This document shows positions 1 through 49,984 of a DNA stretch of 64,000 bases, piece after piece. Under the pieces are notes generated by a model that was not told the DNA's origin, did not search any database, and was given only the letters and a program-made list of their open reading frames with translations. The DNA is from a virus, in IMG/VR virus record IMGVR_UViG_3300043409_001877, positions 1-64,000 of that record. The stretch is one strand, 5' to 3'. The position numbers and the translations under genes are program-made. Numbering within the stretch: the stretch's first letter is position 1; each line of letters starts with the position of its first letter.

Positions 1-27
1 AAAAAAAAGGCTGAAATTATCAGCCTT
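1..27 (-). terminator. Intrinsic terminator closing the DUF2828/ncRNA unit
   Basis: Perfect 8-bp stem AAGGCTGA (7-14) / TCAGCCTT (20-27), 5-nt loop, followed on the minus strand by a U-run (A tract 1-8). Confidence 0.8.
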
Positions 28-36
28 CTAATTAGA

Positions 37-200
37 TAGAGTATTATCGGAATTGTTTGAATGTTAAAGTCATTCGTCCTGGCTGGGTAAAATCATCCTC
101 GCCACAGATGAAGTTTGCTTCGTTAACTTTTTCAAGTTACTAGGCTTTTCGGATAGTTGTATGTTTTTTTAACTTTGCTGCAATTATTCCCAATACTCTA
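37..200 (-). ncRNA. Candidate structured ncRNA (Y-RNA-like) downstream of the Ro60/TROVE-like gene
   Basis: Ends pair: TAGAGTATT (37-45) with AATACTCTA (192-200), continued after a bulge by GGAAT/ATTCC. Internal GNRA hairpin UAACUU-GAAA-AAGUUA (124-139). Lies between the DUF2828 stop and a terminator. Confidence 0.55.
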
Positions 201-205
201 ATATT

Positions 206-1600
206 TTAAGCAGTAATAAGCTCGTAACGTGTGCTATTAACTGTTTTATTCATGATACCAATTGGTGACATATCTTCACCTGTCAACAATGATTTTAAGA
301 TTGCTGGTGAGAAACCACTAACCAACGCTGTACCATTATCACCAACTTGAACTGGGAAGTTTCCAGCACTTCTGCTTTGGATATTCCAGAACACTAATTT
401 TGGCATTGCGTAACCAGCTGTTTCGTATTTTTCACTAATCATATCCAACGCACTTCCTCTGTGATTAGTAGCTTGATTAAACTCCATGTCTGACATAATC
501 AAAACTGTTGTTGGCATTTCCGATTCTGGTAAGTTGAATCCAATTGCCTGATTAAGAATCAAAGTAAACACAGCTTCAAGGTTAGTACTCATACCCCAAT
601 CAGAATGTTGTAATTGACGATAACGGTCTTTTAAATTACCGTTAAGGTATTGCAATACTGGTGATTCAGAGAATGTTATAAACGCATCCTTAAATTTACC
701 TTCGTTTCTTTCTGAAATATACAACCCTAAAGAAATACATACATCCAAACAAGTAACAGTTTTACCTGCTGGTGAACTCATAGAACCAGAAACGTCACAC
801 ACTGGTAACACTCTTTCATTGCTACCTTCCATGTAGTTAGGTAACGCATCCCATTGCTTTACAGCCATTGTTTGATCTCCCTTTTGTAAGGTTTTCAATA
901 CATCGTATGGGTATACAGCTGAAGCGTTAACTTTAGTATCGCCATTTTTGTATGCATCAAAACGAGTTGAGTCATGTTTACCAAACGCTTTACCATAACG
1001 AGCCATAGCAACAGATGGTACATGTTCATAAGTAATACCATTCCATTCTTTAGCACACATAGCTGTTTCAACAACATTAGTTTTTTCAACTAACATTTTA
1101 CGATACTCTTTTGGAGATAATTTCATGTAACGTTCTAAAGCAATAGCTTCTTTACCTTTACGAGGCATCCACTTAGCACATAAACCGTTATTCTCATTAA
1201 GAGCACTTACGATTAAGTTTTTAGCTTGCGTATCTAATTTAGTACCAAATAAAACTAATAAATCATCCCAACGACCATATTCGGAAACGTATGATAAATT
1301 TTTAGCTAACGACTCAGTATGATTTTCAACCAAATATAACATTAAATCTCTAAAGATCTGACGCTCACCAGCACCACCACGAACATCACGAGCCCAGAAC
1401 ATAGTTCTAAGAGCTACTAACGGATTTTCGTTAAATGCTTTTGAGAAGTTAACTACTAATCTTTTTTTGTCTTGCCCACGCATAGCTCCAATTGTGAAAA
1501 ATAAATCCACACAAGCATTAAGTGATGAACTATTGGTAACCATACCGTTTTCAGTTTGGTTATCTCTTGTTCTAAGTGCGTCTACTAATGAATTTGCCAT
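206..1600 (-). CDS. DUF2828 family TROVE/Ro60-like protein with C-terminal vWA domain
   Basis: Motifs ACVDLFF, RDVRGGAGER, EYGRWDDL, CAKWMPR; MIDAS DVSGSM; SDMEF; FWN; LVSGFS. Confidence 0.85.
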   Translation of the reverse strand: MANSLVDALRTRDNQTENGMVTNSSSLNACVDLFFTIGAMRGQDKKRLVVNFSKAFNENPLVALRTMFWARDVRGGAGERQIFRDLMLYLVENHTESLAKNLSYVSEYGRWDDLLVLFGTKLDTQAKNLIVSALNENNGLCAKWMPRKGKEAIALERYMKLSPKEYRKMLVEKTNVVETAMCAKEWNGITYEHVPSVAMARYGKAFGKHDSTRFDAYKNGDTKVNASAVYPYDVLKTLQKGDQTMAVKQWDALPNYMEGSNERVLPVCDVSGSMSSPAGKTVTCLDVCISLGLYISERNEGKFKDAFITFSESPVLQYLNGNLKDRYRQLQHSDWGMSTNLEAVFTLILNQAIGFNLPESEMPTTVLIMSDMEFNQATNHRGSALDMISEKYETAGYAMPKLVFWNIQSRSAGNFPVQVGDNGTALVSGFSPAILKSLLTGEDMSPIGIMNKTVNSTRYELITA

Positions 1601-1622
1601 TGTTTTATTTTTAATTACTTTA

Positions 1623-1653
1623 CAAAGATAAGCATAAATTCTTAAAAAACAAA
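1623..1653 (-). promoter_or_regulatory. Bacteroidota primary-sigma promoter (-33 TTTG / -7 TAnnTTTG)
   Basis: Minus strand TTTG (1653-1650), 19-nt spacer, TATCTTTG (1630-1623), 22 nt before the DUF2828 ATG. Confidence 0.8.
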
Positions 1654-8695: not shown

Positions 8696-9045
8696 TAGCT
8701 AGCTGAATTTTTTAAGTCATTAGACCAGAAACTTCTTCTAGTCCATAGGTTTTTATATAATTGAACTAATACGTTTCTAGTTATATCTACAATATACTTT
8801 TCAATATCTTTATCCGTTTTAAACTTCTTTTTAATAATGTCAGTAACTTTTTTTTCTAAGTCTGAACTTCTATTAATATCTAAAAAATCTTTGATTTCTT
8901 TTTTAACCATAGTTTTAACATCACTCTTATCTGTTGGTGTTAAAGCCTCAGTAATAACAGATTCATCACATAGACACATGTCCATTTCCTTTATAACCTC
9001 ATTAAAATAGGTTGCTAATTGGGATTCTGTTACTTTTACTTTCAT
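8695..9045 (-). CDS. Hypothetical protein, putative head-internal protein
   Basis: MKVKVTESQL start, ITE motif, TATTTAT 12 nt upstream. Confidence 0.65.
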   Translation of the reverse strand: MKVKVTESQLATYFNEVIKEMDMCLCDESVITEALTPTDKSDVKTMVKKEIKDFLDINRSSDLEKKVTDIIKKKFKTDKDIEKYIVDITRNVLVQLYKNLWTRRSFWSNDLKNSAS

Positions 9046-47830: not shown

Positions 47831-49984
47831 TTAACTTGAACATCCGAAACACTCATACTGTGAATTATCGGGCTTTTTAGGTAATGGTTCAGATGAACCA
47901 CCACTTGATAGTTTTGAATTATTCTCTATTTTTGATTTTGTTCTGGTATAATATACACCAGATTTAAGACCAGATTTCCACGCAAACATTAAAGCGCTTG
48001 ATATCTTAGAATATTTAGCATCCGAGTGGTATACATTTAATGATTGTGATTGATCAACATAGTTATTCCTAATAGCTGATAATTCCAATAACGTTTTTTG
48101 TGAAATCTCCCAAACGTCTTTATAGCGATACTTAATATCTTCTGGAATTTCGTTAATTAACTGAATGCTACCACCATTAGAGACAATTTTATTCTTAATA
48201 TCATTATCCCATAGGCTAATTTCATCTAATTCTCTAACTAAATGCTTATTAATAACTAAAAACTCACCCTGACCAACTCTTCTGGTAAACAAATTAGAAG
48301 TTACTGGTTCAAACGACTCAAAAACACCTAATAAAATAGCGGAAGATGCTGTTGGCATTAACCCTAAAAATAATGAATTTAATACAGGAATTGGTTCCCC
48401 AGATGGTAATGGACTCCAACCCTCAATATATGTCTCACCTTGTGAATATGGACTACCGTCCCAAGCTGGGTACGTTCTGTTTTGTTCCTTAGCCATTTTC
48501 ATAGACTCAGTAACCGCAGCTTTGTACATTGTTTCGAAAATATCTTTATTCCATTTTTTAGCTTCTTCACTTTCGAATGAAATTTTCTTTTTAGCGAAGA
48601 AATCAGCTAAACCAGCTACACCAATAGCTAACGACCTTTGGTCTAACCCAGCTAAAGCACTCCACTCATCACTCCATTTATTCTTATCAATAACGGAATT
48701 TAACGCTCTAACCATTACTTTGGTGCTTTTGGCAATAGTTGCTAACTCATTATGCTCAGCCAAATTAATTGAACCTAAAGTGCATTGTGATGTGTAACCT
48801 GGTTTAGATACATTGGTAATTTCAATACAGAGATTACTCTGCTTAATAACCCCAATATTCCTTTGCATGTTTTTTCTATTAGCATTGTCTTTAAAGAACA
48901 CATATGGTCTACCACTTTCAACTTGTGATTTAATAATAGCATCCCAAATGGTTTTAGCGTTTGCTTTATACCCGATACCAAGTTCAACAGCTTTATTGTA
49001 CATTTCAACAAACTCATCACCCCAGGTTTCGTGTAATGGTTTTAAACCAGCTTTTTCGATATCATTTGGACAAAATAAATACCAATCTTCATTGTTAATT
49101 AATTTTTCCATGAATAAGTCATTGATAACCACAGAAGTAAATAAATCTCTGGCTCTCATTTGTTCGTCTCCGATTGGTAGTGTTAACTCAAGAAAATCAA
49201 TAATGTCTCTGTGCCAAACTGACAAATATAAAGCGCAGCTACCAGAACGACTACCTTGCTTATAGAATCTCATTTTACTTTGAACCATATCAGCAAGTCT
49301 AACAACACCACCAGCATTTGAATTAAATGAACTTACCATTGAATGTTTACTTCTAATTGGATCTATTAATAAACCTATCCCAGAACCCTCTTTTGAGGCG
49401 TATGACATCTTTGTAAGCGTCTCTTCAATACCTTGGATGGTATCGCTATGAAGTGTCGTTAAATTGCACGAAATCATCCCATTTCGCTTATCAATACCTG
49501 CATTAGTATATATAGGGGTTGCAAAGTTCATTCTTTTATGAGTTAACTCATCTAAGAACATTTTTTTTTCGCTTGGGGTTGTGGCTAAATGTGAAGCAAC
49601 TCTTTCATACATACATGATGGTAACTCAACTGGTGTATTACCTTCTTTAACTGAGTATTTTTTTAAAAATGTTGTCGCAGCAAAGAAATCGTAAGTCATA
49701 TCAACTTCTTGTAGTTCTTTACCAATTAATTTAGATTGTCTACTTAATAATAATCTACCACCTAATGTCGCATAATCTGGGTGATTAATTACTTTATCAG
49801 CTGATTTAAAAGCTATTAACTCATCTAATTCAGTTGTTGTCATATCATCATAAATTAATGGTATAACTTCTTTAAATAAACTATCCGAATCAACATTTAA
49901 ATCTTTTGAATGTTGTTTAATTCTACTTAATATTTTATTAGGCATAAAAGCCTGATACTCACCGTTTCTTTTCTTAATTCTCAT
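47831..49984 (-). CDS. nrdA: Ribonucleoside-diphosphate reductase alpha subunit, class Ia, with ATP cone
   Basis: IKKRNG cone, TP...NAG, ISC, QSNLCIEI, MPTASS, DQSQS, GLKSGVYY, C-terminal CFGC. Confidence 0.95.
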   Translation of the reverse strand: MRIKKRNGEYQAFMPNKILSRIKQHSKDLNVDSDSLFKEVIPLIYDDMTTTELDELIAFKSADKVINHPDYATLGGRLLLSRQSKLIGKELQEVDMTYDFFAATTFLKKYSVKEGNTPVELPSCMYERVASHLATTPSEKKMFLDELTHKRMNFATPIYTNAGIDKRNGMISCNLTTLHSDTIQGIEETLTKMSYASKEGSGIGLLIDPIRSKHSMVSSFNSNAGGVVRLADMVQSKMRFYKQGSRSGSCALYLSVWHRDIIDFLELTLPIGDEQMRARDLFTSVVINDLFMEKLINNEDWYLFCPNDIEKAGLKPLHETWGDEFVEMYNKAVELGIGYKANAKTIWDAIIKSQVESGRPYVFFKDNANRKNMQRNIGVIKQSNLCIEITNVSKPGYTSQCTLGSINLAEHNELATIAKSTKVMVRALNSVIDKNKWSDEWSALAGLDQRSLAIGVAGLADFFAKKKISFESEEAKKWNKDIFETMYKAAVTESMKMAKEQNRTYPAWDGSPYSQGETYIEGWSPLPSGEPIPVLNSLFLGLMPTASSAILLGVFESFEPVTSNLFTRRVGQGEFLVINKHLVRELDEISLWDNDIKNKIVSNGGSIQLINEIPEDIKYRYKDVWEISQKTLLELSAIRNNYVDQSQSLNVYHSDAKYSKISSALMFAWKSGLKSGVYYTRTKSKIENNSKLSSGGSSEPLPKKPDNSQYECFGCSS

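What the first reader, a model, noticed from the sequence alone, without database searches (positions are those of the whole stretch)
1..1653. Ro60/TROVE-like DUF2828 gene co-transcribed with a candidate Y-like structured RNA
Seen: a perfect host-type promoter (1653-1623), the DUF2828/vWA ORF, then the largest non-coding stretch in the window, then a strong terminator (1-27). The spacer starts 5 nt after the stop and its ends pair: minus RNA 5'-UAGAGUAUU-G-GGAAU...AUUCC-GAU-AAUACUCUA-3', a bulged terminal helix. Inside are a GNRA-capped hairpin (124-139), a GUUAAA/UUUAAC helix, a UCAUC/GAUGA hairpin whose loop (UGGC) could pair with a downstream GCCA, and CAGCAA just 3' of the 5' strand. Known: Ro60/Rsr (TROVE+vWA) proteins bind Y RNAs through a bulged 5'/3' stem, and bacterial Y RNAs are encoded next to rsr. 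Inference: a phage-encoded DUF2828-RNA ribonucleoprotein, possibly for RNA quality control/repair or as a decoy against host anti-phage RNases.
Basis: partly seen in the sequence, partly recalled or inferred. Interest (0 to 1): 0.85.

Follow-up and report, generated by a model that had tools for sequence, protein, structure and literature searches.

The report
Phage Ro60-like protein with partner RNA
A large uncultured phage carries a small operon that makes a ring-shaped Ro60-like protein and one 166-base folded RNA; the RNA's conserved "handle" sits beside the same protein gene in very different phages, so the two are probably partners in a Ro60/Y-RNA-like particle that I found in no paper or RNA catalogue.

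Summary
Window 206-1600(-) encodes a 464-aa DUF2828+DUF7788 protein. Its predicted fold matches solved Ro60/TROVE proteins over both domains (Z 13-17), although sequence searches find no TROVE match. The 205-nt spacer downstream holds a 166-nt RNA (36-201, minus strand) closed by a 15-bp bulged helix. An invariant U..C.GCAA motif follows the 5' strand and an invariant G follows the 3' strand. An intrinsic terminator comes next.

This stem-plus-motif "handle" covaries strongly across clades. A covariance model built only from other clades picks the window RNA as the best hit in all 64 kb. A short-handle model hits next to the homologous gene, on its strand, in 9 of 9 cultured phages of nine bacterial genera. 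It scores nothing comparable in 0.9 Mb of unrelated viral DNA.

The RNA is not YrlA or any other Rfam family, and its interior is not tRNA-like. That interior has two covarying hairpins and a pseudoknot, and recurs only in three close relatives.

Binding, processing and function are untested. This scan has found the same system many times on other DNA. I found no publication describing the RNA family. The handle matches the published description of Dictyostelium Class I RNAs.

The parts
1623..1653 (-). Promoter-like element TTTG-N19-TATCTTTG (Bacteroidota -33/-7 type), 22 nt upstream of the ATG
   Evidence: One search gives the exact match. One search shows a similar element at the same place in L216, L001, L002, L003, L004 and L028. 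The motif count in the window is not above chance (4 vs 3.2).
206..1600 (-). Gene for the 464-aa Ro60-like protein: DUF2828 helical-repeat part, then a DUF7788/vWA domain with MIDAS residues D269, S271, S273, T339, D371
   Evidence: families; invariant residues; model, pLDDT 77; Foldseek: top 13 hits all Ro60, E 3.6e-9 to 2.6e-5; Z 13.1-16.9 over 325-384 residues.
36..201 (-). Handle RNA, about 166 nt, from the 5' strand of the outer stem to its 3' strand
   Evidence: fold; conservation and covariation; model R2, built without this clade: top hit 37-204, 25.2 bits, E 0.006.
186..200 (-). 5' strand of the terminal helix: outer UAGAGUAUU(G) and inner GGAAU (190-186)
175..185 (-). 11-nt single-stranded motif AAUUGCAGCAA; U, C, G, C, A, A are invariant across clades
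   Evidence: (invariant columns T20, C22, G24, C25, A26, A27).
124..139 (-). Hairpin UAACUU-GAAA-AAGUUA. L001 and L002 have a UUCG-capped hairpin at about this place
   Evidence: read directly from the sequence.
93..111 (-). Hairpin UCAUC-(loop UGUGGCGAG)-GAUGA
   Evidence: four of five pairs change on both sides among four sequences.
80..83 (-). GCCA, which pairs with the loop UGGC (101-104) to form a pseudoknot
   Evidence: 4 pairs, 100% paired. L002 has UAGC/GCUA, a compensatory change.
59..75 (-). Hairpin GAAUG-ACUUUAA-CAUUC with a conserved 7-nt loop NCUUUAA
   Evidence: the closing pair switches G-C to C-G in two sequences.
37..53 (-). 3' strand of the terminal helix: inner AUUCC (53-49), invariant G (48) within the GAU bulge, outer AAUACUCUA (45-37)
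   Evidence: (A149 and G154 invariant).
1..28 (-). Intrinsic terminator, hairpin GAAGGCUGAU/AUUUCAGCCUUU plus U8, at the end of the contig
   Evidence: fold; same terminator in L216, followed by a new promoter-like element and gene.

Best explanation
Window 1-1653(-) is a self-contained early operon: promoter, a Ro60-like ring protein (DUF2828 type), one 166-nt structured RNA, terminator. The RNA belongs to a widespread phage RNA family defined by a 'handle'. The handle is a 5-7 bp helix that joins the two ends of the RNA and is closed by an invariant G-C pair. A single-stranded U..C.GCAA motif directly follows its 5' strand, and an invariant G directly follows its 3' strand.

The most likely mechanism has four steps.
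1. Host RNA polymerase transcribes gene and RNA together (inferred).
2. The long-range helix closes the RNA. The 10-bp outer extension protects it or marks it for excision from the mRNA (inferred).
3. The protein binds the handle, as Ro60 binds the bulged stem of Y RNAs (inferred from co-inheritance and fold).
4. The clade-specific interior, here two covarying hairpins and a pseudoknot, acts as a cargo or adaptor. It would either gate the protein ring or tether a host RNA-processing or defence factor (speculative).

Shown here: the protein fold, the RNA structure and its covariation, and the gene-RNA linkage across phages. Not shown: binding, RNA ends, and biological role.
For: Protein:
- Foldseek's top 13 PDB hits are all Ro60/TROVE and cover the full length.
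- VIA-align gives Z 13.1-16.9 over both domains, against about 9-10 for vWA-only chains.
- The MIDAS residues are invariant in 26 homologues.

RNA structure:
- The inner stem is 98.8% paired in 32 RNAs from four clades, with 35 double-change cells. No shuffle out of 500 reached this, and slid controls gave 21-58%.
- Outer stems of 6-14 bp, with different sequences, are present in all 32.
- The window-clade structure is 98.3% paired, with 9 pairs changed on both sides.

RNA family membership and linkage:
- Model R2, built only from other clades, ranks window 37-204(-) first in 64 kb: 25.2 bits, E 0.006, next best E 1.7.
- 90 of 96 non-identical metagenomic loci have a sense-strand handle within 1.3 kb downstream of the gene. 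Density is 1.15 per kb, against 0.03 antisense and 0.09 elsewhere.
- Model R1 hits at 25-50 bits on the gene's strand in 9 of 9 cultured phages of Vibrio, Salmonella, Listeria, Mycobacterium, Campylobacter, Staphylococcus, Enterococcus, Synechococcus and Bacillus. Sixteen of those 21 hits lie within 1.2 kb of the gene, most of them within 0.5 kb.
- The best score in 0.91 Mb of unrelated viral DNA is 17.2 bits.

Operon layout:
- The promoter-like element is conserved in place.
- The same terminator is present in the closest relative.

Precedents: Ro60 genes lie next to their Y RNAs in bacteria and phages (PMC4201824), and Thermus phage phiLo Ro60 binds two adjacent Yrl RNAs (PMC12135203).
Against: - There are no binding or expression data.
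- The motif differs from the Ro60-binding GNCGAAN0-1G of YrlA/YrlB (PMC4201824).
- In KVP40, BUCT-ZZ01 and vB_BcoS-136 some handle RNAs lie 3-9 kb from the gene, so adjacency is not absolute.
- Bas63 gp130 is described as Ro60-like and sits directly upstream of the tRNA genes of a Felixounavirus. I did not check that it is a DUF2828 homologue. It countered the Ppl defence when expressed alone from a plasmid or from T7, without the phage's RNAs (PMC11482910). At least that activity may not need them.
- The only published binder of the similar Dictyostelium Class I RNAs is an RRM protein, Rnp1A (PMC7919456).
- Part of the pairing in alignment A6 was required by my own detector (columns 4-8). Only columns 9-10 there are unselected evidence.
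- E-values from R1 and R2 are rough because calibration was shortened.
Confidence: 0.62

Rival explanations
1. The structured region is a cis-acting 3' UTR element of the protein's mRNA. It would act as a stabiliser against 3' exonucleases or as an autoregulatory operator, and not as a free-standing partner RNA.
For: The RNA starts 5 nt after the stop codon, has no promoter of its own, and shares the gene's terminator. In clades A, B and D the first RNA after the ORF always has a long outer stem.
Against: In other phages the same handle occurs upstream of the gene (P100, CPX, EfV12-phi1), inside tRNA arrays (Si3), kilobases away (KVP40, BUCT-ZZ01), and in two to four tandem copies. None of this fits a 3' UTR role. 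An autoregulatory operator would still mean that the protein binds the handle.
Confidence: 0.15
2. The handle RNAs act independently of the Ro60-like protein. They might bind a host factor, or be decoys or tRNA-operon passengers. In that case they sit near the gene only because both belong to the same early or tRNA expression module.
For: Many copies lie in or beside tRNA arrays. Bas63 gp130 works without phage RNAs (PMC11482910). The similar Class I RNAs bind an RRM protein (PMC7919456).
Against: The linkage holds in phages of five bacterial phyla with otherwise unrelated gene orders, including this window's contig, which has no tRNA gene at all. No handle scoring 20 bits or more was found in 100 viral contigs that lack the gene.
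Confidence: 0.17
3. The motif is a DNA- or RNA-level signal, such as a promoter, a processing site or a terminator accessory, and the pairing is incidental.
For: The motif is short and A/U-rich, and it recurs at the 5' edge of each unit.
Against: There is compensatory covariation in the inner and outer stems and in internal hairpins. Hits are strand-specific, 139 sense against 4 antisense. A processing signal would not need a 3' partner strand 50-170 nt away that ends in an invariant G.
Confidence: 0.04

Closest known systems
Bacterial and phage Ro60 (Rsr) with Y RNAs YrlA/YrlB (Chen et al. 2014, PMC4201824; Rfam RF02553), and Thermus phage phiLo Ro60 with Yrl1/Yrl2 (PMC12135203; PDB 9kop, 9l5y)
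   Same: A ring of helical repeats plus a vWA/MIDAS domain. One or more small RNAs are encoded next to the gene on the same strand. The RNA ends pair in a bulged stem with a short conserved motif beside the 5' strand, and the interior is variable. Some family members in other phages carry T-arm and D-arm-like parts, for example Si3 at L280:3029-3170.
   Different: There is no sequence-level TROVE match; Pfam files the protein under DUF2828/DUF7788. The motif is U..C.GCAA rather than GNCGAAN0-1G. YrlA gives no hit. The window RNA has no tRNA-like domain. No binding has been shown.
Class I RNAs of dictyostelid social amoebae (Kjellin et al. 2021, PMC7919456)
   Same: As the paper describes them, a short stem joins the 5' and 3' ends. 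An 11-nt motif follows the 5' strand, with U3, C6, C9, A10 and A11 nearly invariant. A conserved 5' G pairs with the C of a 3' CUGU, and the rest is variable. The phage consensus ..AGG....UUACAGCAA...CCUGu and the window's AAUUGCAGCAA fit these positions.
   Different: Class I RNAs are 42-65 nt, are eukaryotic, have their own promoter, and are reported only in Dictyostelia. Their known binder is the RRM protein Rnp1A. The window RNA is 166 nt, has an extra 10-bp outer stem, and has C-G-A-U where Class I has C-U-G-U. I compared with the paper's text only, not with the amoeba sequences.
Bas63 gp130, the Ro60-like counter of the Ppl defence in a Felixounavirus (PhageMaP preprint, PMC11482910)
   Same: It is described as structurally Ro60-like and lies directly upstream of the tRNA array. 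That is the position of the DUF2828 homologue in Felixounavirus Si3, which is 42% identical to the window protein. The authors guessed that some of the 'tRNA genes' there may be Y RNAs.
   Different: I did not check that gp130 is a DUF2828 homologue. The paper identifies no RNA, and gp130 worked alone in T7. The host and defence repertoire of this window's phage are unknown.

Membership tests
Ro60 / TROVE-vWA proteins | Ring of helical (HEAT-like) repeats followed by a vWA domain, as in solved Ro60 structures | tested here: met
   the top 13 Foldseek hits are Ro60 and cover the full length. Z 13.1-16.9, 325-384 residues aligned across model residues 17-463, well above vWA-only chains (Z about 9-10). 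The model itself has pLDDT 77 and pTM 0.65.
Ro60 / TROVE-vWA proteins | MIDAS motif (DxSxS...T...D) in the vWA domain | tested here: met
   D269, S271, S273, T339 and D371 are invariant in 26 homologues.
Ro60 / TROVE-vWA proteins | Sequence-level match to the TROVE domain or to solved Ro60 chains | tested here: not met
   only DUF2828 and DUF7788 at E up to 0.1; phmmer and a profile search of PDB give only E 0.58 to phiLo Ro60, over the MIDAS stretch alone.
Ro60 / TROVE-vWA proteins | Binds a Y RNA and the ends of misfolded RNA | not testable with these tools
   Needs RIP, EMSA or a solved structure.
YrlA-type Y RNA (Rfam RF02553) | Match to the family covariance model | tested here: not met
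   no hit in the window at E up to 10; no hit in the whole contig at E up to 1; none in five related loci at E up to 0.1.
YrlA-type Y RNA (Rfam RF02553) | GNCGAAN0-1G motif near the 5' end (PMC4201824) | tested here: not met
   The conserved motif is U..C.GCAA. A CGAA occurs at window 73-76, but it is in the 3' half and is lost in L002.
YrlA-type Y RNA (Rfam RF02553) | tRNA-like domain (T and D arms) | tested here: not met
   no tRNA or tRNA-like hit in the window RNA. Other members of the handle family do carry such parts.
YrlA-type Y RNA (Rfam RF02553) | Encoded within a few kb of the Ro60-type gene on the same strand, with the 5' and 3' ends paired | tested here: met
Phage 'handle' RNA family (not published, not in Rfam; defined in this scan) | Inner helix closed by a G-C pair, U..C.GCAA after the 5' strand, G after the 3' strand | tested here: met
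   all invariant positions present in the window RNA; detected by a model built from other clades only.
Phage 'handle' RNA family (not published, not in Rfam; defined in this scan) | Linked to a DUF2828-type gene | tested here: met
Dictyostelid Class I RNA | Stem joining the ends, plus an 11-nt motif with U3, C6, C9, A10, A11 | tested here: met
   The window motif AAUUGCAGCAA fits all five positions given in PMC7919456. This was compared with the text only.
Dictyostelid Class I RNA | Length 42-65 nt, 3' end CUGU, DUSE promoter, dictyostelid genome | tested here: not met
   The window RNA is 166 nt, has C-G-A-U at that place, a phage operon context and a bacterial-type promoter.

The most novel reading that the evidence does not exclude
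DUF2828-type proteins and handle RNAs form a third, so far undescribed branch of Ro60/Y-RNA particles. In it the protein reads a fixed handle and the interchangeable interior supplies the function. The dictyostelid Class I RNAs would be the same RNA class, related by descent or transfer rather than by chance resemblance. In phages the particle would serve as a counter-defence or RNA-decay-steering device, as hinted by Bas63 gp130 acting against Ppl.
Probability: 0.15. Interest if true: 0.9.

Novelty: new variant of a known kind. Interest (0 to 1): 0.72.

Why it matters
Homologues of this protein are found in 711 sequenced phage records. These include Felix O1-like, KVP40-like, Listeria P100-like, Campylobacter, staphylococcal, enterococcal and cluster L mycobacterial phages. 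The protein is annotated only as 'RNA-binding' or 'Ro-like'.

If the handle RNAs are its partners, a very common phage ribonucleoprotein has been overlooked. Many short 'hypothetical' genes and odd 'tRNA-like' calls in phage tRNA regions would then be explained. A published anti-defence phenotype (Ppl) would gain a molecular lead. The function of Dictyostelium Class I RNAs, open for 20 years, would gain a testable candidate mechanism.

This window offers the simplest form of the system: one promoter, one protein, one RNA and one terminator within 1.65 kb. That makes it a convenient construct for co-expression and structural work.

Tried and rejected
- Known RNA families: Rfam on the window and on related loci gave only terminator-driven or tRNA hits. 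YrlA RF02553 gave nothing in the whole contig. ARAGORN found no tRNA in the window or the contig.
- Small ORFs in the spacer: only 21- and 28-aa TTG ORFs, so coding was rejected.
- Sequence-level similarity to solved structures: none.
- Short-handle model R1 on the window RNA: it cannot span the 130-nt interior and gives only 8.8 bits with a wrong 3' partner. I therefore built R2 from long RNAs of other clades.
- More handle RNAs in the 141-kb contig: my detector gave about 30 candidates. All but the window RNA look like chance; those I inspected at 75.6-75.9 kb lie inside a 2550-aa ORF.
- More members with this window's interior: pattern scans of viral contigs returned chance matches plus the known contigs.
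- ESM Atlas: only viral DUF2828 clusters, nothing on eukaryotic relatives.
- Neighbouring genes: no RNA-repair function found. Two small upstream ORFs have no Pfam match, and HSP20 and ClpP lie downstream in relatives.
- Literature: 'DUF2828' appears in five unrelated papers. No paper describing the RNA family turned up.
Full report
WHAT IS THERE

The window is the first 64 kb of a 141.5-kb IMG/VR viral contig that CheckV rates 47% complete. Two relatives with the same locus lie on contigs of about 300-320 kb, which would fit a jumbo phage.

On the minus strand, 206-1600 encodes a 464-aa protein with Pfam DUF2828 (residues 16-118) and DUF7788 (265-444), and a full-length match to phrog_850 'RNA-binding protein'. 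A 60-nt gap upstream holds TTTG-N19-TATCTTTG at 1653-1623. This fits the Bacteroidota -33/-7 promoter consensus as I recall it. The bare motif is not enriched in the window (4 matches against 3.2 expected). However, a similar element sits at the same place in L216, L001, L002, L003, L004 and L028, while the L006 clade has a TTGACA/TATACT pair there.

Downstream, 1-205 is the longest ORF-free stretch inside the window and has no credible small ORF. It ends in a 10-bp hairpin plus U8 at the very end of the contig. The closest relative, L216 (protein 89% identical), has the same RNA and the same terminator, followed by a new promoter-like element and gene. The unit promoter-gene-RNA-terminator is therefore complete.

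THE PROTEIN

Sequence searches against solved structures find nothing. An AlphaFold2 model built on 26 homologues (pLDDT 77, pTM 0.65) tells a different story.
- By Foldseek, its 13 best PDB matches are all Ro60/TROVE proteins, aligned over their full length. They include Thermus phage phiLo Ro60 (E 3.6e-9), Xenopus and human Ro60, and Deinococcus Rsr.
- VIA-align gives Z 13.1-16.9 with 325-384 aligned residues spanning both domains. Chains that share only the vWA domain stay near Z 9-10.
- The MIDAS residues D269, S271, S273, T339 and D371 are invariant.

So the protein has the Ro60 architecture but lies outside the TROVE sequence family. tblastn finds homologues in 711 cultured-phage records, several annotated 'Ro-like RNA binding protein'.

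THE RNA IN THE WINDOW

The RNA spans 36-201(-). Five nucleotides after the stop codon, UAGAGUAUU-G-GGAAU begins. It pairs with AUUCC-GAU-AAUACUCUA 130 nt further on, and this pairing is part of the minimum-energy and centroid folds.

Three relatives share the same interior: L216, L001 and L002. A further group shares only the ends: L003, L089, L201 and the L004 group.

On the four-sequence alignment, the structure I propose is 98.3% paired. It consists of the 15-bp terminal helix, the hairpin UCAUC/GAUGA, the hairpin GAAUG/CAUUC, and a pseudoknot between the first hairpin's loop UGGC and a downstream GCCA. Nine pairs change on both sides. No shuffle out of 500 reaches the observed pairing or covariation score, and slid controls give 23-53%. 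The pseudoknot has one compensatory change (L002: UAGC with GCUA). With only four sequences, the interior is supported but not proven.

The interior matches no Rfam family and is not tRNA-like. I found it in no other contig.

THE HANDLE FAMILY

Reading the DNA after the stop codon in 80 viral and 80 metagenomic loci with homologous genes shows the same layout in every clade:
- an outer stem strand whose sequence differs from clade to clade,
- a small loop,
- an inner stem strand,
- then U..C.GCAA,
- then, 50-170 nt later, the inner 3' strand, an invariant G and the outer 3' strand.

Many loci carry two or three such units in tandem. Some have a small ORF first and the units after it.

The evidence for this family comes from four tests.
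- Long RNAs. In an alignment of 32 long RNAs from four clades, the five inner pairs are 98.8% paired, with 35 double-change cells. No shuffle out of 500 reached this, and slid controls gave 21-58%. All 32 also have an outer helix of 6-14 bp.
- Short units. In 26 short units, seven pairs are 99.5% paired. Five of these pairs were required by my detector. The two that were not (columns 9-10) still pair in 51 of 52 cells, with four pair types each.
- Position relative to the gene. A simple detector finds a sense-strand handle within 1.3 kb downstream of the gene in 90 of 96 non-identical loci. Density is 1.15 per kb, against 0.03 on the opposite strand and 0.09 elsewhere.
- Leave-clade-out test. 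Model R2, built only from clades B and D, ranks window 37-204(-) first in the whole window: 25.2 bits, E 0.006, next best E 1.7.

REACH AND SPECIFICITY

Model R1 was built from 26 short units and run over whole genomes of nine cultured phages that carry the gene. It gives 25-50-bit hits on the gene's strand in all nine.
- Listeria P100: three hits just upstream of the gene.
- Mycobacteriophage Rumpelstiltskin: two hits just downstream.
- Salmonella phage Si3: three hits within the tRNA array next to the gene. By eye there is a fourth unit, which carries T-arm and D-arm-like parts.
- Campylobacter CPX: two hits between the tRNA array and the gene.
- Staphylococcus S-CoN_Ph3: two hits just downstream.
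- Enterococcus EfV12-phi1: one hit 120 nt upstream.
- Synechococcus BUCT-ZZ01: one hit at 35 bits about 100 nt upstream (and a weaker one, 20.6 bits, next to it), plus three hits 6-9 kb away.
- Bacillus vB_BcoS-136: two hits 3 kb away.
- Vibrio KVP40: one hit 7 kb away.

Several of these hits were not in the seed alignment. In 0.91 Mb of unrelated viral contigs the best score is 17.2 bits. These contigs were a harsh control, because they had been picked for containing part of the motif. In 48 related loci, all 34 hits at E up to 0.001 lie on the gene's strand, downstream of the gene.

WHAT IS KNOWN

Ro60 genes in bacteria and some phages lie next to Y RNAs. These RNAs have paired ends, a GNCGAAN0-1G motif and often a tRNA-like domain (PMC4201824). 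Thermus phage phiLo Ro60 binds two adjacent Yrl RNAs and host PNPase (PMC12135203). A jumbo-phage survey notes TROVE proteins with a tRNA-like partner (PMC7824862).

The PhageMaP preprint reports that Bas63 gp130 counters the Ppl defence. It describes gp130 as Ro60-like and directly upstream of the tRNA genes of a Felixounavirus. It also reports that gp130 works when moved alone into T7, and it guesses that some neighbouring 'tRNA genes' may be Y RNAs (PMC11482910). I did not verify that gp130 is the DUF2828 homologue. The position matches Si3.

LeBron gp53, a cluster L 'Ro-like' protein, is moderately toxic when overexpressed (PMC13148394). I found no paper or Rfam family that describes the handle RNAs.

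Earlier notes of this scan report the same system on many other genomes and point to Dictyostelium Class I RNAs. I checked that lead against the paper. Class I RNAs have a short stem joining the ends, an 11-nt motif after the 5' strand with U3, C6, C9, A10 and A11 conserved, and a conserved 5' G paired to the C of a 3' CUGU (PMC7919456). The phage consensus and the window motif AAUUGCAGCAA fit these positions. I could not compare actual amoeba sequences, nor test whether amoebae have the protein.

READING

The most likely reading (about 0.6) is that the RNA is the bound partner of the Ro60-like protein. The handle would be the docking site and the interior a clade-specific cargo or adaptor.
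- Co-transcription, processing, binding and role are all inferred.
- The outer stem is present on the first RNA after the ORF but short or absent on units inside arrays. It may protect the RNA or help to excise it from the mRNA.
- The main rivals are a purely cis-acting 3' UTR element, or RNAs that act without the protein.
- The Bas63 result shows that at least one activity of a probable homologue does not need the phage RNAs.

This is a new variant of the Ro60/Y-RNA kind, not a member of the YrlA family. The window holds its simplest form.

Noticed in passing
window 48210-48273 (+): Model R1 gives a 22.1-bit hit (E 8e-4), higher than anything in the 0.91-Mb control. The hit lacks GCAA (it reads CAUCUAA), has mismatched pairs, and lies antisense inside a 717-aa ORF (47831-49984, minus strand). 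It is probably a false positive.
   Followed up: partly
L216:1501-2900: In the closest relative (89% identical) the Ro60-like gene reads as two overlapping ORFs (1501-1965 and 1932-2900). This means a frameshift, from an assembly error or from gene decay. The RNA and terminator are intact.
   Followed up: no
L006:4401-5009 and the L006-L020 clade: The gene is followed by three handle RNAs and then an array of 3-9 tRNA genes. The first RNA in L006, L009, L010 and L012 contains a T-arm-like hairpin, GGAUAGG-UUCAAAC-CCUGUC.
   Followed up: partly
L280:3029-3170 (Salmonella phage Si3) and L282:2985-3125 (mycobacteriophage Rumpelstiltskin): Handle RNAs whose interiors carry tRNA parts. Si3 has a T arm (GAAGG-UUCGAUU-CCUUC) followed by a D-arm-like stretch, the permuted order seen in YrlA. 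Rumpelstiltskin has CUGGG-UUCGAGU-CCCAG. ARAGORN calls neither a tRNA.
   Followed up: partly
OR354826.1 8872-8961 (Staphylococcus phage S-CoN_Ph3, L284:2713-2802): An annotated 29-aa 'hypothetical protein' (CDS0028) overlaps a handle RNA hit (8882-8950, 27.6 bits). It is probably a miscalled gene over an RNA.
   Followed up: no
window 59-75 (-): The 7-nt loop NCUUUAA of this hairpin is conserved in all four relatives and differs by two positions from a tRNA-Lys(UUU) anticodon loop, CUUUUAA as I recall it. Its meaning is unknown.
   Followed up: no
whole contig G000 (141,494 nt): There are no tRNA genes at all in this half-genome, unlike most phages that carry the system. The contig's right end gives no sign of joining its left end.
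   Followed up: partly
L001:5879-6544, L002:1931-2314: Relatives encode a ClpP-type protease and an HSP20 small heat-shock protein a short way downstream of the RNA locus. The 545-595-aa gene directly after the RNAs has no Pfam match.
   Followed up: no
L234, L243, L248, L251, L262, L269 (metagenome loci): In these homologue loci the DNA right after the stop codon shows no handle motif. Six of 96 non-identical loci have no handle by my detector within 1.3 kb downstream, but I did not check which six these are. They may carry divergent handles, or RNAs placed elsewhere.
   Followed up: no
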